64,000 nt of DNA from Gammaproteobacteria bacterium (GTDB taxonomy: Bacteria; Pseudomonadota; Gammaproteobacteria; SZUA-229). Position numbers and translations under genes: made by a program. The notes under the pieces were generated by a model that was not told the origin of the DNA, ran no database searches, and was given only the letters and a program-made list of their open reading frames with translations. Where the stretch lies: NCBI GenBank assembly GCA_013042055.1, contig JABDQW010000041.1:1540-65539 (forward strand), given 5' to 3'. Positions 20,384 through 39,295 of this stretch are shown in pieces; the first letter of the stretch is position 1, and every line of letters begins with the position of its first letter.

Positions 20384-20417
20384 GATTCAACCTCCTATTT
20401 GTTTGTTGAGCTATAAT

Positions 20418-20652
20418 CCTAGATTCCGCAGTTGATCGCTATTACTTCTAGTCAATTCTATGATTATTGCACAGTTATGCAGTATTTGACGTTCACCCAA
20501 TGGGTGAGTCGCTACACAGTTTATCGCCGCCCCGCTAGCGCCATGGCGGCGTTGCAACTTTTGCCAAGGACGACGGCCATTAGCTGCAAGTCGCGCCTTG
20601 CCCTGACGCTAGAGGTGCAGCGCTAAATCTGTGTTCAACTGCGGAATCTAGG
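20418..20652. mobile_element. MITE family 2 (about 235 bp; TIR CCTAGATTCCGCAGTTGA ... TCAACTGCGGAATCTAGG).
   Basis: Near-identical second copy at 33368..33595. Confidence 0.8.
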
Positions 20653-21250
20653 ATAATTTGGTCCATTTATGACGACCGTACGATGGCATCTCGTATACAT
20701 TGATCCAGCCTCAGCACTCACCGTGCCCGATATGGATTGGCTAGCAAACGTTTGATTACAGGAATTCGTCGTCTGCGCAGCGCGAAATCAGGTCGGACCA
20801 TAGCATGGTTTATGCGCTATGTTGCTGCAAGATGATGAACATTCGCGCTTATGAAACGCAACGTCTTTATGTGCCTGAGCTGGCCTGTAACGAAAGCAAT
20901 CGTCCATCTTTACCAGCTACTTACAATGTTTCAAACAGCCAACTAAGATACGATCATAGAACACGTGGCCATTATGCCTTGGTTATCGCATGCGGTGGGC
21001 GAATTATATCGCACGACAATCGAATATAGAAGTTGAGAAAAATCGTTTGGCTGATTAACGTCGAGTGTTCATCACTCGGTTCAGTTGTTGATTTATGTAA
21101 TCTACGGGCGAAATGTATGATTGTCTTGGCGTTATTTACGTTAAAATACGCAACAAGCTGGACCGGGCGATTAAATGTAAATTATTGTCATTTCCAGTGG
21201 CTATACACATGTTCCTAATTAACATCCGTGTGATCAAAAACGTTGACAAT

Positions 21251-32562: not shown

Positions 32563-33366
32563 ATGAGAAAGACGTTAATTGCAATGATTGTCGTTTTAAT
32601 CGTCGTCGTTGTTGCGGTATTCTATGTCTTCAGCAATCTCGATGCCATTGTAGAGGCAGCGATTGAGCAGTACGGCACAGAAGCGGTAAAAACCTCGGTG
32701 CAGGTCGAAGGAGTCGCGATTAAACTAACCGAGGGTGCGGCAGCTATCCAGGGCTTGACGGTTGCCAATCCCGACGGATTCTCATTGCCACATGCCTTTT
32801 CTTTAGGAGAGATTGCCGTTGATATCAATCTTGAAAAGACGGACAAGGAGCTCATTGCGATTGATGCAATTCGTATCGCAGCGCCGCAGGTTTTCTACGA
32901 GATCAATGCGGAAGGCCAAGCTAGCCTCAATATTCTTGCAGACAACCTGGGCAGCGATAGCGGCGCGAGCAGTTCGACATCTGCACCAGACGAATCTTCA
33001 ACTGCCGAACAGACAGCGCCAATACGACTGGATATTGCACGCTTCGAACTAAAGGAAGCGAGTTTACGCGCCAAGGCGGTACCCTTGGATAACAAAGCTT
33101 ATGACCTCAAATTACCGGCGCTGGTGTTGACTAACCTACAGGGAACACCCGAACAGATATCGAAACAGGTACTTGATCGATTGATCGATCACGCGAGAGC
33201 AGAAATCAAGAAGCAGGGTCTCGACAAAGAGCTCACCAAACTCAAGGCCAAAGCGCAACAAAACATCGATGAGGAGCGGGCGAAATTAGAACAGAAAGCC
33301 GATGAGGTGCTTGAGGAACAAAAACAGGAAGCCGAGGACAAGCTAAAAAATCTGCTCAATCGTTAA
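32563..33366 (+). CDS. Membrane-anchored hypothetical protein with a C-terminal coiled coil.
   Basis: N-terminal TM helix and a Lys/Glu-rich helical tail. Confidence 0.45.
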   Translation: MRKTLIAMIVVLIVVVVAVFYVFSNLDAIVEAAIEQYGTEAVKTSVQVEGVAIKLTEGAAAIQGLTVANPDGFSLPHAFSLGEIAVDINLEKTDKELIAIDAIRIAAPQVFYEINAEGQASLNILADNLGSDSGASSSTSAPDESSTAEQTAPIRLDIARFELKEASLRAKAVPLDNKAYDLKLPALVLTNLQGTPEQISKQVLDRLIDHARAEIKKQGLDKELTKLKAKAQQNIDEERAKLEQKADEVLEEQKQEAEDKLKNLLNR

Positions 33367-33367
33367 A

Positions 33368-33595
33368 CCTAGATTCCGCAGTTGATCGCTATTACTTCTA
33401 GTCAACTCTATGACTATTCGAAAAGTTATGCAGTATTTGACGTTCACCCAACGGGAGAGTCGCTACACAGTTTATCGCCGCCCCTCTAGCGGCGTTGCAA
33501 CTTTTGCTAAGGACTATGGCCATTAGCTGCAAGTCGCGCTTTGCCCTGACGCTAGAGGTACAGCGCTAAATCTGCGTTCAACTGCGGAATCTAGG
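33368..33595. mobile_element. MITE family 2, second copy.
   Basis: About 90% identical to 20418..20652 over its full length. Confidence 0.8.
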
Positions 33596-33947
33596 TTAAA
33601 CGAGCGAGAATAATGCGTGAAATATTAGGGGCCTGGGGCGAATGGCGCTCACTTAAGCAAAACATAGACTTGCGAGGAACGAAGCAATTTCTTATGAGGT
33701 AACGCAAAGTTGCAAAGATCGCCACGCTACCGCTCGCGATGACGCGATTTTGCGCCTGAGCGCTTGCGTAATGGCCCAACCATGCACATGATGTGCCACG
33801 AGCCAGGGGGGATACGCGTCGAGTTCATTGTTCCGGCTTGAAATCATGGCTTCAAATCAGACAAGATTTTCATTATGATCAATAAATCTCGTTTTGTCTG
33901 GAACTGGGGGATCTGATAACGCGGCGTATTTTTCGGAGGTTGGTTCG

Positions 33948-35315
33948 ATGAGTTATGTTAACAAGCATCAAGTGACCGAAGGCATTGAGAGACATGCCGA
34001 AGTTGGGGAGAAAAACGGCCACAGCTTCACTGGATACACGAATACACCTTTATTTCATGAGCGCGTCACTCGGTTTGATCGCTGGTTGGCGCGGGCAATG
34101 ATGGAGGTTGTTGGTAGTCCTGACGGCACGCTTCGTTTGTGGGACGGGCAAAGCGTAAGCGCTCATGTCGATAAACCCATGCCAGTGATTCAATATGGGA
34201 ATCGCCTGGCTATGTGGAAAACCCTGATCAATCCTGAACTGAACTGGGGCGATCTCTACTGTAATGGCCAGATTCAGTTCCAAGGTGATCTGGCCGTTTT
34301 CCTGGAGACAGTCTACCGTCATCTTTACAGCACCAGAGAGAACAGAAGCTGGCTGCATCGTTTCCTCGTCTGGCTCGGGCATCGCCGTATTGCAAATACC
34401 GAAGCCAGGGCAGAAGAGAATATCCATCATCATTACGATATTGGTAATGATTTTTACAAGCTGTGGCTCGATGCCGAAGCGATGCAATACACCTGCGGCT
34501 ATTTTCCGGACCCTGATATGACGCTGGAGCAGGCCCAGCTTGCTAAGATGCATCACGTGTGCCGAAAATTACAGCTCAACCCCGGTGATACGGTCGTCGA
34601 GGCGGGTTGCGGCTGGGGCGGGCTGGCACTTTTCATGGCCAAGCATTATGGTGTCAAGGTCAAGGCCTATAACATTTCAAAACAGCAGATAATTTATGCC
34701 CGTCAATGTGCCGAGCAGCAAGGCTTGTCGGACAGGGTTGAATTCCTGCTTGACGACTATCGCAATATAACCGGAAAATTTGATGTGTTCCTATCAGTTG
34801 GCATGCTTGAGCATGTCGGCCGAGGCGATTACCCTGCTCTGGGCGCGCTGATCGAACGTTGCCTCAAGCCTGAAGGCCGCGGTTTGATTCATACCATTGG
34901 CCGTATAAAGCCGGCTCCGATGAACGCATGGATCGAACGTCGAATATTTCCAGGCGCCTACCCGCCCAGTCTGAGGGAAATGATGGAGATTTTCGAGCCT
35001 AAACGGCTGTCAGTCCTGGATGTTGAAAACCTGAGATTACATTATGCCAAAACGCTGGACTACTGGCTGCAAAGGTTTGAGCAGCATCGGGATGAAGTCG
35101 CAGCTATGATGGATGAGGAATTTGTCAGGGCCTGGCGTCTATATCTGGCCGGTTCCATTGCTGCATTCAGAGCCGGCGAACTGCAGTTGTACCAAGTTGT
35201 GTTTGCCCGAGATACCAACAACGATGTGCCGTGGTCACGCGCACACTTGTATCGATATGGATCAGAAAGCAGGCGGAAGCTCAGTGTTGTCGAGGGTGAC
35301 ACGATTCATGCTTGA
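33948..35315 (+). CDS. Cyclopropane-fatty-acyl-phospholipid synthase family SAM-dependent methyltransferase (candidate BfaB-like lipid methyltransferase).
   Basis: SAM motif VVEAGCGWGG and CFA-synthase C-terminal blocks. It has an N-terminal extension of about 100 aa relative to E. coli Cfa. Confidence 0.8.
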   Translation: MSYVNKHQVTEGIERHAEVGEKNGHSFTGYTNTPLFHERVTRFDRWLARAMMEVVGSPDGTLRLWDGQSVSAHVDKPMPVIQYGNRLAMWKTLINPELNWGDLYCNGQIQFQGDLAVFLETVYRHLYSTRENRSWLHRFLVWLGHRRIANTEARAEENIHHHYDIGNDFYKLWLDAEAMQYTCGYFPDPDMTLEQAQLAKMHHVCRKLQLNPGDTVVEAGCGWGGLALFMAKHYGVKVKAYNISKQQIIYARQCAEQQGLSDRVEFLLDDYRNITGKFDVFLSVGMLEHVGRGDYPALGALIERCLKPEGRGLIHTIGRIKPAPMNAWIERRIFPGAYPPSLREMMEIFEPKRLSVLDVENLRLHYAKTLDYWLQRFEQHRDEVAAMMDEEFVRAWRLYLAGSIAAFRAGELQLYQVVFARDTNNDVPWSRAHLYRYGSESRRKLSVVEGDTIHA

Positions 35316-36432
35316 TGTATTGATCATCGGCGGGGGACCTGCAGGATCGACTCTGGCGTGGGCTTTGCGACATGCCGGGTTGAAAATTGCGATATTGGAC
35401 AAAGAGAATTTTCCTCGGCAGAAAGTCTGCGCCGGGTGGGTGACACCCGCAGTAATGCAGGAGCTGGAAATTGACCTTGATGACTATGCCAGCGGCCGGA
35501 TACTGCAGCCTGTCAACGGTTTTCGTATCAGTCAAATCGGGCAGAAGCAGGTGCAGTCACATTACCCCGGCGGACCCGTGAGTTATGGCATCCGTCGCAT
35601 CGAGTTTGATCATTATCTGTTGCAACGCTGTCAGGCAGAATTGCGGACCGGGGAGGCTTTCAAACGCATGGAACGCACTGACCACGGGTGGTGCGTGAAT
35701 GGCGATATCGAGACAAGGCTGGTGGTCGGCGCAGGCGGGCATTTCTGCCCGGTTGCGCGCGCCATCGGCGCAAAAGGTGTGAGCGAGCTTGCCGTTGCTG
35801 CGCAGGAAGTTGAGTTTGAAATGACAGCCGAGCAACTGGCTGCCTGTAACATTGATACGAGAGTGCCCGAGCTTTTCTTCACTTCCGATCTTAAAGGCTA
35901 TGGCTGGGTTTTCCGCAAACAGAATTACCTTAATATTGGTCTGGGCCGCGAAGACAGGCACAGACTGTCGAGCCATGTACAGGGCTTCATTCGATACCTC
36001 AAACAACAGGGCAAGGTTCCGCGCGACATGCCGGAAAAACTAAACGGCCACGCCTACCTGCTCTATCCTCACGCGGTAAGAAACATTGTCAGCGACAATG
36101 TGTTCCTGATAGGTGATGCCGCCGGCCTTGCCTACCCTCAGAGCGGTGAAGGTATTCGTCCCGCGGTTGAATCGGCAATTCTTGCCGCCGGCGTTATCAT
36201 AGACTGTGCTGGTGACTTTGCGGCGGTACAACTTCATTCCTATCAGGAACGCATCGAGCAGCGCTTCGGTCAACGTCATCCCGAACCCAATGTGGTAGAA
36301 CGGCTGCCACTCGGTATCAAACAGCTGATCGCTTCCACGCTGATGAAAACGGACTGGTTCACTCGGAAGATCGTGACCGATCGCTGGTTTTTGCATTTAG
36401 ACCAGAAGCCACTGAATTCTGCCTCAGCCTGA
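35308..36432 (+). CDS. FAD-dependent oxidoreductase, geranylgeranyl-reductase-like (candidate BfaA-like enoyl/methylene reductase).
   Basis: GGGPAGS Rossmann motif and a GD FAD site (IGDAAG). It overlaps the methyltransferase stop by 8 nt. Confidence 0.75.
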   Translation: MLDVLIIGGGPAGSTLAWALRHAGLKIAILDKENFPRQKVCAGWVTPAVMQELEIDLDDYASGRILQPVNGFRISQIGQKQVQSHYPGGPVSYGIRRIEFDHYLLQRCQAELRTGEAFKRMERTDHGWCVNGDIETRLVVGAGGHFCPVARAIGAKGVSELAVAAQEVEFEMTAEQLAACNIDTRVPELFFTSDLKGYGWVFRKQNYLNIGLGREDRHRLSSHVQGFIRYLKQQGKVPRDMPEKLNGHAYLLYPHAVRNIVSDNVFLIGDAAGLAYPQSGEGIRPAVESAILAAGVIIDCAGDFAAVQLHSYQERIEQRFGQRHPEPNVVERLPLGIKQLIASTLMKTDWFTRKIVTDRWFLHLDQKPLNSASA

Positions 36433-36451: not shown

Positions 36452-36826
36452 CTATGGCGGGGGATTGTCGACGAGGATGGCAGTCCAGATCATCGCGGCG
36501 ATAATCAGAGAGATCAACACAGCCGCCGAGCCCATATCTTTTGCACGTCCCGAGAGTTTATGGAGTTCGTCACCGACACGGTCAACGACTGCTTCAATTC
36601 CGGAATTGAGCAGTTCTACTGTCAGGACGAAGAGGACACTGCCTATCAGAACCGCCTTGTCTGTCCAATCCTGACCCAGATAAAAACCCAGCGGTATCAT
36701 GATTACAGCCAGCCATACTTCCTGCCTGAACGCCGATTCATGCTTGTAGGCGGCCTTGAGGCCCAGCCAGGAGTAGCCTGTCGCATTGATGATTCTTCTT
36801 ATTCCTGTTGCGTCGGTTTTTCCCAT
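36452..36826 (-). CDS. dgkA: Diacylglycerol kinase.
   Basis: Prokaryotic DgkA: about 120 aa, three TM helices, and SGIEAVVDR-like conserved blocks. Confidence 0.85.
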   Translation of the reverse strand: MGKTDATGIRRIINATGYSWLGLKAAYKHESAFRQEVWLAVIMIPLGFYLGQDWTDKAVLIGSVLFVLTVELLNSGIEAVVDRVGDELHKLSGRAKDMGSAAVLISLIIAAMIWTAILVDNPPP

Positions 36827-36850
36827 TATTGGCTCCACAGGATTGGGTCA

Positions 36851-37849
36851 TCAGCCGACATGAATCTGTTCCATCAGATAACACAGACAGTCCTGTCTGA
36901 TGGCTCTCTCGTTGGTAGTATACATGGACAGAGTGGCATTTTTCCTAAGAACGATCTTTGAGTCCGCGATCTCAAAGAATTCGCTGGTAATGTCCTCGCT
37001 ACTTTCGTTTGTCACAACAAGGTGTGCCTCACTTTCAGGTTTGAGGCCGGCAAAGATGGAACCTGTGCCCAGTTGTTCGAAGTTCATGTTTTCGAGATCA
37101 TAGCTGAGGTGGATATCAGCGTTGTTATCGGTTCCTAAAGAAAATATCTCTGGTACGGTCACACGTGCCACGGTATGAAACAGATTGATATGTGATGGGT
37201 GTTCCGATGGCAGTTTGTCGGTATTTAGTACTGCCTGCAAGTAGCGGGTAGAGTGAGTCACGCCGTCAGCTTGGCCTGACTGGCCGCACTCGAGTACGAC
37301 CGCTGGGCAGAAATCAGAGAATGCGGCGGATTGTACACCTTTGGGACTAGTGAAATAAACCACTGTTGTGCCAAACATGCCGGCAAGCTGTATACAGTGC
37401 GGATTGAGGATGTTGACACAGGCGTAGTGTGGGTTAAGACCGGTATTGTTGTGAATATCGATACTGGCGAACGTTTTACGCTTGTACATGATGTTCGCAA
37501 TGGTTTTCATCATATCTGTTTCCGCGCAGTCATCATGATGAGTTCCAGGCCATATGCGATTGTAGTCGGGCTGTTGGTCCAGTCTTCGTTGTGCTACAGC
37601 CGCGGCGTCAACATTACCGATGAATATCGACACGGCGCGTGGCAGCGGTTTGTTCTGATATTGCTTCAGCAGGCGTTGAATGGCATAAAAGCCGGTTGTT
37701 TCGTTGCCATGGAGCAGTGTGCATATAAACAAAGGTTCCCGTTTTTCACCCGGCAAGTGTATTAATGTAGGCGAGCCAAGTATTCGTTTTAGTTCGGTCG
37801 CGTCGGCTTCGAGCAATCCGTTTGGAAGGGTATCGGTTTCGTGTAACAT
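36851..37849 (-). CDS. Succinylglutamate desuccinylase/aspartoacylase (AstE/AspA) family zinc hydrolase.
   Basis: LHGNE Zn-binding motif and an M14-like fold signature. Confidence 0.7.
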   Translation of the reverse strand: MLHETDTLPNGLLEADATELKRILGSPTLIHLPGEKREPLFICTLLHGNETTGFYAIQRLLKQYQNKPLPRAVSIFIGNVDAAAVAQRRLDQQPDYNRIWPGTHHDDCAETDMMKTIANIMYKRKTFASIDIHNNTGLNPHYACVNILNPHCIQLAGMFGTTVVYFTSPKGVQSAAFSDFCPAVVLECGQSGQADGVTHSTRYLQAVLNTDKLPSEHPSHINLFHTVARVTVPEIFSLGTDNNADIHLSYDLENMNFEQLGTGSIFAGLKPESEAHLVVTNESSEDITSEFFEIADSKIVLRKNATLSMYTTNERAIRQDCLCYLMEQIHVG

Positions 37850-39295
37850 TTATGTATAGCTTTCAAAGTCCCATTCATGTACGGGCTTGTTCGATTGTTG
37901 ATTGTGATAGTAACTCTTTGTCAGTAGCTGCATGTCACGGCCGTTAAGCTCGACGAATTTGCGCTGCCATTGTGTACCCGTCTGCCCGCTTTCGATGCGC
38001 GCTTGGATTATGCCCAGGTAGAAACTGCAGTCGGCGTCTGATATGCCGAGTTTGCTCAGTCCGGTTTCAGCTTCGGATAACAGTTTGTCTAATACCAGAG
38101 TTCGAATAGTGTATTTGTTTCCGTCTGCCCAAAGCAATCGATTACTCAGACCCACTTGTGCTGATCGGTAGAAATTATCTTTAGTTTCGGCAAATGTTAG
38201 CGTCGATTCGGGCGGGTTTACGCAGGTTGCATAGTACTCCACAAGTCCATAATAGAAAGCGATGTTCGCAATATTGTCGACCGTGCTGGCCGCGCTTGAC
38301 ATCGTGCGATGTTCGATTCTCAAGTGAGCTGTGCCATCGTCATCGAAGCCAATGAGCGGTCGATTCCAGCGCCATATCGTGCCATTGTGCAGTCGTAGGT
38401 GGTTCAATTTCTCAGCATCACTGTCGTAGCTCACCGGAAGTAGCACGGGATAGTGCTCAAGATTCTCACTAAAGCATTCGAATAAGGATTCCCGTGCATA
38501 CTGACTACCAAAAGTGACACGATGTAGCGGTCCACTGGCGGCGCCGCCAATGCCACCAATGTCGACGGATTGCTCAAACACCGGTATGCGAGTTTCATAC
38601 CATAGATCCCGATTGAACATAAAAGGTGCATTAGCACCAACTGCAACTAGGGGCGCCGAGAGTACCATCGATGCATTGTAATAACGCACCGCTCTATCTT
38701 GCGGCGTTTGTAAATGTATTTGCAGTGATGTTGACGCAGCTTCGAGCATCACATCCTTGTGTAAGACCTCAAGGTGCTCATTGCCATTGATGTTCAAGCT
38801 GATGGTTTTACCCTTGCGTTGCCTCAGGACCTGCTCGTTAAGGGCCTTGTAGCGGTCCAGCGAAGAAATGTTCTGCAGCGACAGATCGCTGTTGGTCAAT
38901 GTCGGCAATATACCGATACCCAGCATGTTGCAGCCGATATCATTTGATGTTTGCTTGCACTGTTCCCACAGTTTTCGAAGTTGCTCGTCAAAAATACGCA
39001 ATAGATCCTTATTAAAAGGCTGTGGATCTGCATTGAGTTCAATGTTGAACTTGGCCAATTCAGGAAACAAATAAGGATTGTTAGCATGTTCAAGAAATGC
39101 TTCGTTTCGTGGACAAGGCGAAGCGTCATCATCGATCAGCCATGCTTCCAGTTCATAACCTGCTACGGGGTCTTTTGTCGACAAGGCATGATTGTTAAAC
39201 CATTCTGCAAGAATTTCTGTTTCTTGTTTCAGGTGTTTCTGATATTGGTGATAATCGCTTTTTACGAAACGACTATATTTTATTTCTTCACCCAT
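37850..39295 (-). CDS. Glutamate-cysteine ligase family (GshA/GCS2-like) carboxylate-amine ligase.
   Basis: Loose matches to GCL blocks (LQIHLQ; LSAPLVAVGANAPF). The stop abuts the AstE-like gene start. The assignment is tentative. Confidence 0.45.
   Translation of the reverse strand: MGEEIKYSRFVKSDYHQYQKHLKQETEILAEWFNNHALSTKDPVAGYELEAWLIDDDASPCPRNEAFLEHANNPYLFPELAKFNIELNADPQPFNKDLLRIFDEQLRKLWEQCKQTSNDIGCNMLGIGILPTLTNSDLSLQNISSLDRYKALNEQVLRQRKGKTISLNINGNEHLEVLHKDVMLEAASTSLQIHLQTPQDRAVRYYNASMVLSAPLVAVGANAPFMFNRDLWYETRIPVFEQSVDIGGIGGAASGPLHRVTFGSQYARESLFECFSENLEHYPVLLPVSYDSDAEKLNHLRLHNGTIWRWNRPLIGFDDDGTAHLRIEHRTMSSAASTVDNIANIAFYYGLVEYYATCVNPPESTLTFAETKDNFYRSAQVGLSNRLLWADGNKYTIRTLVLDKLLSEAETGLSKLGISDADCSFYLGIIQARIESGQTGTQWQRKFVELNGRDMQLLTKSYYHNQQSNKPVHEWDFESYT

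What the first reader, a model, noticed from the sequence alone, without database searches (positions are those of the whole stretch)
33948..36432. Cfa-like methyltransferase translationally coupled to a geranylgeranyl-reductase-like flavoprotein: candidate operon for mid-chain methyl-branched fatty acids
The 455-aa CFA-synthase-family methyltransferase carries an N-terminal extension of about 100 aa not found in E. coli Cfa. Its stop overlaps by 8 nt the start of an FAD-dependent reductase of the family that saturates C=C bonds in isoprenoid lipids. The described route to 10-methyl (tuberculostearic-type) fatty acids uses exactly this pairing: a Cfa-like enzyme makes a 10-methylene intermediate that an FAD oxidoreductase reduces (BfaB/BfaA in actinomycetes and some gammaproteobacteria). 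Here the reductase is of the GGR/FixC type rather than the amine-oxidase type, which would make this a variant pair. The lipid kinase gene dgkA is immediately adjacent and convergent.
Basis: partly seen in the sequence, partly recalled or inferred. Interest (0 to 1): 0.6.

Follow-up and report, generated by a model that had tools for sequence, protein, structure and literature searches.

The report
Known tmpBA 10-methyl fatty acid operon

Summary
A 455-aa CMAS/Cfa-family methyltransferase sits at 33948-35315. A 374-aa geranylgeranyl-reductase (GGR)-family flavoprotein sits at 35308-36432. They overlap by 8 nt, and dgkA is convergent 19 nt downstream.

The pairing is not a new variant. Blitzblau et al. 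2021 (PMC7791843) described it as the tmpBA ("ten-methyl palmitate") operon of Marinobacter, Thiohalospira and Desulfobacter. The window proteins are 54-58% (TmpB) and 53-55% (TmpA) identical, full length, to the tested gammaproteobacterial pair. The methyltransferase falls in the TmpB clade with 100/100 bootstraps, apart from E. coli and Aquifex Cfa and from BfaB.

In 83 of 83 related genomes with enough upstream sequence, a methyltransferase of this family lies upstream of the reductase on the same strand. No third gene is conserved.

Most likely mechanism: TmpB methylates phospholipid-bound 16:1Δ9 to 10-methylene-16:0 (shown for orthologues in E. coli). TmpA then reduces it to 10-methyl-16:0 (inferred; never demonstrated).

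- the "100-aa N-terminal extension";
- BfaAB occurring in gammaproteobacteria;
- BfaA being of the amine-oxidase type.

The dgkA adjacency is lineage-specific. Verdict: an ordinary new member of a known system, of low interest.

The parts
33948..35315 (+). tmpB: SAM-dependent CMAS/Cfa-family methyltransferase, 455 aa (predicted fatty-acyl Δ9 10-methylene synthase)
   Evidence: PF02353, 3.7e-85. 58% and 54% identity, near full length, to T. halophila and M. hydrocarbonoclasticus TmpB. TmpB clade 100/100. Bicarbonate-site residues C183, E288, H315, I317 and Y366 conserved.
35308..36432 (+). tmpA: GGR-family FAD flavoprotein, 374 aa (putative 10-methylene reductase)
   Evidence: TIGR02032, 160.1 bits against a cut-off of 158.8. 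55% and 53% identity, full length, to Mhyd and Thal TmpA. The nearest solved structure is T. acidophilum GGR 3OZ2, by sequence and by fold, TM 0.74. GGR motifs present.
35308..35315 (+). 8-nt overlap ATGCTTGA between the tmpB stop and the tmpA start (probable translational coupling)
   Evidence: Read directly from the sequence. In the 83 related loci with both genes, about half abut within 3 nt or overlap, with start codons picked heuristically.
33935..33939 (+). GGAGG ribosome-binding site 8 nt upstream of the tmpB ATG
   Evidence: Sequence context. It supports the 455-aa start, the same length as the gene call in the syntenic relative L001.
33851..33879 (+). Sigma-70-like promoter match (TTCAAA-17-TATGAT) about 70 nt upstream of tmpB; weak evidence only
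   Evidence: Consensus scan, 9 of 12 matches. The region had 7 matches against 3.4 ± 1.9 expected.

Best explanation
The locus is a gammaproteobacterial-type tmpBA operon, a two-gene module that puts a methyl branch at C10 of monounsaturated membrane fatty acids.

Step 1. This is shown for orthologues and inferred here from 54-58% identity and clade membership. TmpB uses S-adenosylmethionine to methylate the cis-Δ9 double bond of phospholipid-bound C14-C16 acyl chains, mainly 16:1Δ9. Instead of closing a cyclopropane ring it gives the exo-methylene product, 10-methylenepalmitate.

Step 2. This is inferred and has never been demonstrated for any TmpA. TmpA is an FAD enzyme of the GGR family. 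It keeps the GGR FAD-binding and cavity motifs and the cysteine aligned with GGR Cys47. It is proposed to reduce this unactivated C=C to give 10-methylpalmitate. Its electrons would come from a donor not encoded in the module.

The 8-nt overlap couples translation of the two proteins. The pair is a self-contained unit found in varied genomic contexts across bacterial phyla.
For: - Prior description. PMC7791843 defines tmpBA as a Cfa-like TmpB followed by a GGR-like TmpA. Four of five operons made 10-methylenepalmitate in E. coli, including T. halophila (70%) and M. hydrocarbonoclasticus (45%), and the native hosts contain 10Me16:0.
- Identities. Window MT: 57.7% and 54.3% to Thal and Mhyd TmpB over about 400 aa. 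Window RD: 54.9% and 52.7% to Mhyd and Thal TmpA over about 370 aa. By contrast MT is 42% to E. coli Cfa, 37% to Aquifex CFAS and 37-39% to BfaB, over the catalytic domain only.
- Trees. Neighbour-joining trees place the window MT inside the gamma-type TmpB clade, 100/100 bootstraps, with either reference set.
- Curated models. The MT scores far below every curated Cfa equivalogue cut-off: 288/400, 344/600, 277/650. Mhyd TmpB behaves the same way.
- Linkage. 83 of 83 related loci with room have an MT upstream on the same strand, 79 of them directly adjacent. These span Gammaproteobacteria, Burkholderiales and Acidobacteriota.
- TmpA. Full-length alignment to GGR 3OZ2. AF2 model with pTM 0.75, best fold hit 3OZ2 at TM 0.74. 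GxGxxG (8-13), C41 aligned to the GGR Cys, Y198-x-W200-x-F202, R97-x-x-F100-D101 and L267-x-G269-D270 are all present, and most are invariant across TmpAs. The motif definitions come from PMC10821996.
Against: - No TmpA has shown reductase activity. It was inactive in E. coli and in yeast.
- Whether the product is methylene or cyclopropane cannot be read from the sequence. The five bicarbonate-site residues are identical in Cfa, BfaB and TmpB, so step 1 rests on homology at 54-58% identity.
- The organism is uncultured and no lipid data exist for it.
- TIGR02032 is passed by only 1.3 bits.
- The AF2 model is of moderate quality: mean pLDDT 71, and residues 71-88 and 343-365 are below 50.
Confidence: 0.8

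Rival explanations
1. The methyltransferase is an ordinary cyclopropane fatty acid synthase (Cfa), and the flavoprotein is an unrelated neighbour.
For: Best Pfam and NCBIfam hits are to Cfa models. The nearest solved structures are true CFA synthases 7QOS, 5Z9O and 6BQC. All bicarbonate-site residues are conserved.
Against: Scores are well under all Cfa equivalogue cut-offs. Identity to Cfa is 37-42%, against 54-58% to TmpB. The TmpB clade has 100/100 support and excludes E. coli and Aquifex Cfa. The reductase is linked in 83/83 loci and overlaps the MT stop. Orthologues made methylene products, not cyclopropane, in E. coli.
Confidence: 0.05
2. The pair modifies an isoprenoid lipid, such as a quinone or polyprenyl side chain, not a fatty acid. 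The basis would be that GGR enzymes reduce isoprenoid double bonds and some CMAS-like enzymes C-methylate prenyl chains.
For: TmpA belongs to the GGR family, with weak hits to MenJ and BchP/ChlP models. Weak MT hits to GPP and FPP C-methyltransferases. No TmpA activity on fatty acids has been shown.
Against: Orthologous TmpBs methylate C14-C18 Δ9-Δ11 fatty acids efficiently. The MT keeps the Cfa-type N-terminal region: the E. coli-type Cfa model (NF008686) aligns to it from model position 41, and a weak DUF7884 match covers residues 61-131. TmpA scores far below all isoprenoid-reductase equivalogue cut-offs: 111/343, 73/700, 66/580. Hosts carrying tmpBA contain 10Me16:0.
Confidence: 0.05
3. 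TmpB makes the methylene or methyl-branched intermediate, but TmpA is not a simple methylene reductase. It might isomerise or further process the intermediate towards a different end product, as UfaM products feed furan fatty acid synthesis.
For: TmpA was inactive in every heterologous test. The fold is shared with flavin monooxygenases and halogenases, which rank just behind the GGRs.
Against: All GGR-specific motifs are present, including the cysteine aligned with GGR Cys47. The top sequence and fold hits are GGRs. Hosts accumulate the saturated 10-methyl product. No other conserved gene in the neighbourhood could carry out the reduction. I had no UfaM, UfaD or UfaO sequences, so that comparison was not made.
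Confidence: 0.08

Closest known systems
tmpBA operon, gammaproteobacterial type (M. hydrocarbonoclasticus MARHY3375/3376; T. halophila SAMN05660831_00818/00819; Blitzblau et al. 2021, PMC7791843)
   Same: Same gene order and close apposition of the two genes. Same two families. 53-58% full-length identity for both proteins. Same clade. Same extended TmpA C-terminus.
   Different: A different, uncultured gammaproteobacterial lineage. About 40 extra, poorly conserved residues at the TmpB N-terminus relative to T. halophila. Different genomic neighbours. No experimental data.
tmpBA operon, Desulfobacter type (D. postgatei, D. curvatus, Desulfobacula toluolica)
   Same: The same Cfa-like plus GGR-like pairing and the same product class (10-methylene/10-methyl-16:0). 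The TmpAs are homologous, 32-34% identical, and share the CAGW and GAGGxxCP motifs.
   Different: The Desulfobacter TmpB is a close relative of E. coli Cfa (54% identity) and lies in a different clade from the window MT. Its TmpA is about 60 aa shorter and lacks the C-terminal region.
bfaAB (actinomycete 10-methylstearate / tuberculostearic acid pathway; Machida 2017, PMC5660069; Blitzblau 2021)
   Same: The same two-step chemistry: a SAM methylene synthase acting on a Δ9 acyl chain, then flavoprotein reduction. The MT belongs to the same CMAS superfamily and keeps the bicarbonate-site residues.
   Different: BfaA is a PF01565 FAD_binding_4 protein with no detectable similarity to the window reductase. 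It uses NADPH. BfaB is only 37-39% identical and forms a separate clade.
Cyclopropane fatty acid synthase (E. coli Cfa 6BQC; A. aeolicus 7QOS; L. acidophilus 5Z9O)
   Same: The E. coli-type Cfa model aligns over both the N-terminal region and the catalytic domain. SAM-binding motif and bicarbonate-site residues are shared. The substrate is probably phospholipid-bound.
   Different: 37-42% identity. Below the curated equivalogue cut-offs. A separate clade. The predicted product is exo-methylene rather than cyclopropane.
Archaeal geranylgeranyl reductase (T. acidophilum Ta0516, 3OZ2; S. acidocaldarius, 3ATQ)
   Same: Fold (TM 0.74), GxGxxG, the aligned cysteine, and the YxWxF, RxxFD and LxGD motifs.
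   Different: Only about 21% identity. The predicted substrate is a 1,1-disubstituted alkene on a fatty acyl chain, not a trisubstituted isoprenoid double bond. It is strictly coupled to a methyltransferase gene.

Membership tests
TmpB (tmp-operon methylene synthase, gamma type) | CMAS-family SAM methyltransferase with a Cfa-type N-terminal region | tested here: met
   PF02353, 3.7e-85. The E. coli-type Cfa model NF008686 aligns from model position 41. Weak DUF7884 match at residues 61-131.
TmpB (tmp-operon methylene synthase, gamma type) | Groups with the experimentally tested TmpB rather than with Cfa or BfaB | tested here: met
   54-58% identity. Clade support 100/100 in two trees.
TmpB (tmp-operon methylene synthase, gamma type) | Conserved Cfa bicarbonate-site residues (a selection criterion used in PMC7791843) | tested here: met
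   C183, E288, H315, I317 and Y366 align with E. coli C139, E239, H266, I268 and Y317.
TmpB (tmp-operon methylene synthase, gamma type) | Lies immediately upstream of tmpA on the same strand | tested here: met
   8-nt overlap. The same arrangement is found in 83/83 related loci.
TmpB (tmp-operon methylene synthase, gamma type) | Converts 16:1Δ9 to 10-methylene-16:0 | not testable with these tools
   Shown only for orthologues in E. coli.
TmpA (tmp-operon GGR-like flavoprotein) | Full-length homology to described TmpA | tested here: met
   54.9% and 52.7% identity over about 370 aa to Mhyd and Thal TmpA. 32-33% to the Desulfobacter type.
TmpA (tmp-operon GGR-like flavoprotein) | Reduces 10-methylene to 10-methyl | not testable with these tools
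   Never shown for any TmpA.
Geranylgeranyl reductase family (TIGR02032) | Passes the family HMM and carries the GxGxxG, catalytic Cys, (P)xxYxWxF(P), RxxFD and LxGD motifs | tested here: met
   160.1 bits against 158.8, a marginal pass. Motifs at residues 8-13, C41, 198-202, 97-101 and 267-270, as defined in PMC10821996. The two flanking prolines of PxxYxWxFP are replaced by L and R.
Specific isoprenoid reductases (BchP/ChlP, DGGGPL reductase, MenJ) | Reaches the curated equivalogue or subfamily score | tested here: not met
   110.9/343.3, 66/580 and 72.6/700.
Cyclopropane fatty acid synthase (true Cfa) | Reaches the curated equivalogue score | tested here: not met
   NF008686 287.6/400, NF053839 344.5/600, NF040703 277.3/650. 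Outside the Cfa branches in the trees.
BfaAB (actinomycete 10-methylstearate operon) | Reductase homologous to BfaA (FAD_binding_4) | tested here: not met
   BLASTP E = 1.2 against M. smegmatis BfaA. BfaA is PF01565; the window reductase is a PF01494/GGR type.
BfaAB (actinomycete 10-methylstearate operon) | Methyltransferase in the BfaB clade | tested here: not met
   37-39% identity over the catalytic domain only. Separate clade.

The most novel reading that the evidence does not exclude
TmpA is not the methylene reductase everyone assumes. It has failed in every heterologous test. It could therefore convert the TmpB product into something other than saturated 10-methyl-16:0, or act on another lipid, with the final reduction done elsewhere. 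A milder version is that TmpA is a true GGR-type reductase of a fatty-acyl exo-methylene, but depends on a host-specific electron donor that is not encoded next to it in any of 82 loci.
Probability: 0.1. Interest if true: 0.5.

Novelty: new member of a known kind. Interest (0 to 1): 0.2.

Why it matters
For this window it matters little. It lets the two genes be annotated as tmpB and tmpA, and predicts that this uncultured gammaproteobacterium carries 10-methyl-branched C16 (and C14) fatty acids.

Two modest wider points came out of the comparison.
1. The gamma-type tmpBA module is far more widespread than the 2021 paper's Desulfobacteraceae and gammaproteobacteria. It occurs in Burkholderiales, Rhodocyclaceae, Steroidobacteraceae, Terriglobales and Bryobacterales genomes. 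This bears on the use of 10Me16:0 as a biomarker for Desulfobacter or actinomycetes (that usage is from my own knowledge).
2. The module is always just two genes, has no ferredoxin partner, and occurs in evident aerobes. Any future attempt to reconstitute TmpA activity has to account for that.

Tried and rejected
1. Third conserved gene, such as a ferredoxin or other electron donor. I clustered all ORFs from 82 loci. Only the two genes and their shadow ORFs recur; the rest is Marinobacter-specific synteny.
2. dgkA as a functional partner. Rejected: it is adjacent only in L001, L002 and L006.
3. Regulatory RNA in the 580-nt upstream region. No Rfam match at E ≤ 1. The strong hairpin there is a repeated MITE-like element, not an operon feature.
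4. Later literature on TmpA or TmpB. Two full-text searches found nothing after the 2021 paper.
5. Amphipathic membrane helix in the TmpA C-terminal extension. The hydrophobic-moment scan did not single it out and the AF2 model is unreliable there, so I dropped the idea.
6. Bicarbonate-site residues as a discriminator of methylene versus cyclopropane product. They are invariant in all 33 sequences and so uninformative.
7. Terminator between tmpA and dgkA. None found in the 19-nt gap.
8. Not done: comparison with UfaM or UfaA1 (no sequences to hand), the reverse check of whether every gamma-type TmpB has a TmpA, and a large-database search with the methyltransferase, which I judged unnecessary.
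Full report
**Observation.** The ORF scan shows a + strand ORF at 33894-35315. Its ATG at 33948 gives a 455-aa protein and has a GGAGG 8 nt upstream. A second + strand ORF has an ATG at 35308 that gives a 374-aa protein ending at 36432. The junction reads ...CAT GCT TGA in the first frame and ATG CTT GAT in the second, an 8-nt overlap.

The first protein is a CMAS-family SAM methyltransferase (PF02353, E = 3.7e-85). The second passes the geranylgeranyl-reductase (GGR) family model TIGR02032, though narrowly: 160.1 bits against a cut-off of 158.8. dgkA (PF01219, 3.6e-36) lies at 36452-36838 on the minus strand, convergent, 19 nt from the reductase stop.

One element is wrong, the "about 100-aa N-terminal extension not found in E. 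coli Cfa". E. coli Cfa has its own N-terminal domain of about 100 aa, and the E. coli-type Cfa model aligns to the window protein from model position 41. In a multiple alignment the window protein adds three things: about 40 poorly conserved N-terminal residues (absent from T. halophila TmpB), a 13-residue insertion, and a 24-residue C-terminal tail.

**What it is.** A full-text search for BfaA/BfaB led to Blitzblau et al. 2021 (PMC7791843). That paper describes two systems.
- bfaAB, in actinomycetes.
- tmpBA ("ten-methyl palmitate"), in Desulfobacter, Desulfobacula, Marinobacter hydrocarbonoclasticus and Thiohalospira halophila.

[quoted passage not shown] Four of five tmpBA operons converted palmitoleate to 10-methylenepalmitate in E. 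coli (T. halophila 70%, M. hydrocarbonoclasticus 45%). C14-C16 Δ9 substrates were preferred. No TmpA showed activity in E. coli or yeast. The donor organisms are listed there as containing 10Me16 fatty acids.

**Test of orthology.** I used the protein sequences from that paper's Additional file 3.
- The window methyltransferase is 57.7% identical to T. halophila TmpB and 54.3% to M. hydrocarbonoclasticus TmpB, over about 400 residues.
- It is only 42% identical to E. coli Cfa, 37-39% to BfaB and 36-41% to Desulfobacter-type TmpB, and then over the catalytic domain alone. It is 37% identical to Aquifex aeolicus CFAS, 7QOS.
- The window reductase is 54.9% and 52.7% identical over its full length to the Marinobacter and Thiohalospira TmpA, and 32-33% to the Desulfobacter TmpAs. 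It has no significant similarity to BfaA (E = 1.2).
- Neighbour-joining trees place the window methyltransferase inside a clade holding the two tested gamma-type TmpBs and the methyltransferases from related loci. Support is 100/100 bootstraps with either reference set. That clade excludes E. coli Cfa, Aquifex CFAS, the Desulfobacter-type TmpBs and BfaB.
- The window methyltransferase falls well short of every curated Cfa equivalogue cut-off in NCBIfam, and M. hydrocarbonoclasticus TmpB does the same.
- The five residues of the Cfa bicarbonate site are conserved (C183, E288, H315, I317, Y366). They are invariant in all 33 sequences compared, so they cannot separate methylene-forming from cyclopropane-forming enzymes.

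**Linkage.**
- The reductase has thousands of database relatives. The listed ones are 68-99% identical, mostly from uncultured Gammaproteobacteria.
- Two relatives examined in context have the same methyltransferase-reductase pair overlapping in the same way, once in a syntenic neighbourhood and once in a completely different one.
- A scan of one genome per species found 575 genomes with a relative. In the best 80 plus the four earlier loci, a homologous methyltransferase lies upstream on the same strand in 83 of the 83 loci that have room. The loci comprise:
  - 79 loci where the methyltransferase is directly adjacent. In 78 of them it is about 50-77% identical to the window protein; in one (L022) it is a more distant 31% homologue about 200 nt away.
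  - 4 Terriglobales loci with a gap of about 470 nt.
  - 1 locus too short to tell.
- In about half of the loci the two genes overlap or abut within 3 nt, with start codons picked heuristically.
- Carriers include Marinobacter, Thiohalophilus, Thioalkalispiraceae, Steroidobacteraceae, Lysobacterales, Burkholderiales, Rhodocyclaceae, Terriglobales and Bryobacterales.
- Clustering all flanking ORFs showed no third conserved gene.
- dgkA is adjacent only in the three closest loci.

**The reductase.**
- By sequence, the nearest solved structure is the Thermoplasma acidophilum digeranylgeranylglycerophospholipid reductase 3OZ2, aligned over nearly the full length.
- An AlphaFold2 model (mean pLDDT 71, pTM 0.75; residues 71-88 and 343-365 are unreliable) has 3OZ2 as its best fold match (TM 0.74). 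The S. acidocaldarius GGR structures match at TM about 0.67 and rmsd about 3.9 Å. Flavin halogenases and monooxygenases of the same superfold follow.
- The motifs a 2024 review lists for archaeal GGRs (PMC10821996) are present: GxGxxG (residues 8-13); a cysteine (C41) aligned with the GGR Cys47 that is essential in the S. acidocaldarius enzyme; Y198-x-W200-x-F202 of the catalytic cavity; R97-x-x-F100-D101; and L267-x-G269-D270. Most are invariant across all TmpAs aligned.
- The protein does not reach the cut-offs of the specific isoprenoid-reductase models BchP/ChlP, DGGGPL reductase or MenJ.
- BfaA is a PF01565 FAD_binding_4 protein.

**Mechanism.** The best-supported account has two steps.
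1. TmpB methylates the Δ9 double bond of phospholipid-bound 16:1 (and 14:1) with SAM and releases the exo-methylene product. This is shown for orthologues and inferred here.
2. TmpA, a GGR-type FAD enzyme, reduces that unactivated double bond to give 10-methylpalmitate. This step is inferred from four points: strict genetic coupling, retention of the GGR motifs, the presence of the saturated product in host organisms, and the absence of any other conserved candidate gene. It has never been demonstrated.

The electron donor is unknown and is not encoded in the module. The authors of the 2021 paper suggested oxygen sensitivity or a missing electron carrier. The window also encodes COQ7, which by established knowledge is an O2-dependent hydroxylase. 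Many carriers are aerobes (my own knowledge). I therefore consider a missing donor more likely than intrinsic oxygen sensitivity. This is inference.

**Rivals.** Three alternatives were weighed.
- An ordinary Cfa next to an unrelated flavoprotein.
- A pair that modifies an isoprenoid lipid.
- A TmpA with a function other than methylene reduction.

Each is weighed in the rival-explanations section. None is favoured, but the third cannot be excluded while TmpA lacks a demonstrated activity.

**Novelty and verdict.** The locus is a new, uncharacterised member of a described system. I found no later work on TmpA in the library. Interest is low.

**Side observations.** The wider taxonomic spread of the module, the two distinct origins of "TmpB", a MITE-like repeat just upstream of tmpB, and a small Cys-rich ORF between the two genes in Terriglobales are listed in the noticed-in-passing section.

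Noticed in passing
window 33366-33600 and 20416-20654: Two copies of a MITE-like element of about 235 bp, 91% identical. Terminal inverted repeats are about 26-35 nt (arms 33355-33389 / 33574-33608, 89% complementary), and both copies are flanked by TAA. One copy sits directly after the stop codon of the DUF748 gene, in the 580-nt gap upstream of tmpB. It folds as a long hairpin (-102.7 kcal/mol, z = -7.5). There is no Rfam match, and its terminal repeat is absent from all 84 fetched loci, including the syntenic relatives.
   Followed up: partly
L005-L084 (genome-contig scan): The gamma-type tmpBA module is not confined to Gammaproteobacteria and Desulfobacteraceae as described in 2021. Intact pairs occur in genomes labelled Burkholderiales, Rhodocyclaceae, Steroidobacteraceae, Lysobacterales, Terriglobales, Bryobacterales, and in MAGs labelled Gemmataceae and Streptomycetaceae. 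575 species genomes hold a TmpA relative. If these pairs are functional, 10Me16:0 is a less specific lipid biomarker than is usually assumed.
   Followed up: partly
L067 4348-4566 (-), L077 4574-4792 (-); same gap in L080, L084: In four Terriglobales loci, tmpB and tmpA are separated by about 470 nt. In the two loci examined (L067, L077) the gap holds a conserved 72-aa Cys-rich ORF on the opposite strand (MAPLIEAERWCEQV...CPGCGSGLCE.H..C..CGVSFC.RCDHVC), with several CxxC pairs. It may be a zinc-ribbon or other metal-binding protein. Its function is unknown and it is absent from the window.
   Followed up: no
reference sequences from PMC7791843 (no window coordinates): The proteins named TmpB fall into two separate lineages. 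Desulfobacter-type TmpB is 54% identical to E. coli Cfa over its full length and groups with it (100/100). Gamma-type TmpB forms its own clade. The TmpA partners of both types are homologous (32-34% identity). Methylene-forming activity therefore sits very close to a true cyclopropane synthase in sequence space. With the few references used, this hints that methylene formation arose or was recruited more than once.
   Followed up: partly
window 36851-39295 (-): Downstream of dgkA lies a conserved pair of genes. One is a succinylglutamate desuccinylase/aspartoacylase-like protein (PF24827, 332 aa). The other is a 481-aa protein with only a sub-threshold match to the glutamate-cysteine ligase family 2 (GCS2, 20.9 bits against a cut-off of 21). 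They abut directly (37849/37850), and the same arrangement is present in L001 and L002. The function of this pair was not examined.
   Followed up: no
window 35308-36432, residues about 320-374 of TmpA: Gamma-type TmpAs carry a conserved C-terminal region of about 55 aa (LP.GIKQ..AS.LM.T.WFT..IVT..WFL) that the Desulfobacter-type TmpAs lack. AF2 predicts helices there with low confidence (pLDDT 35-55). Its role is unknown.
   Followed up: partly
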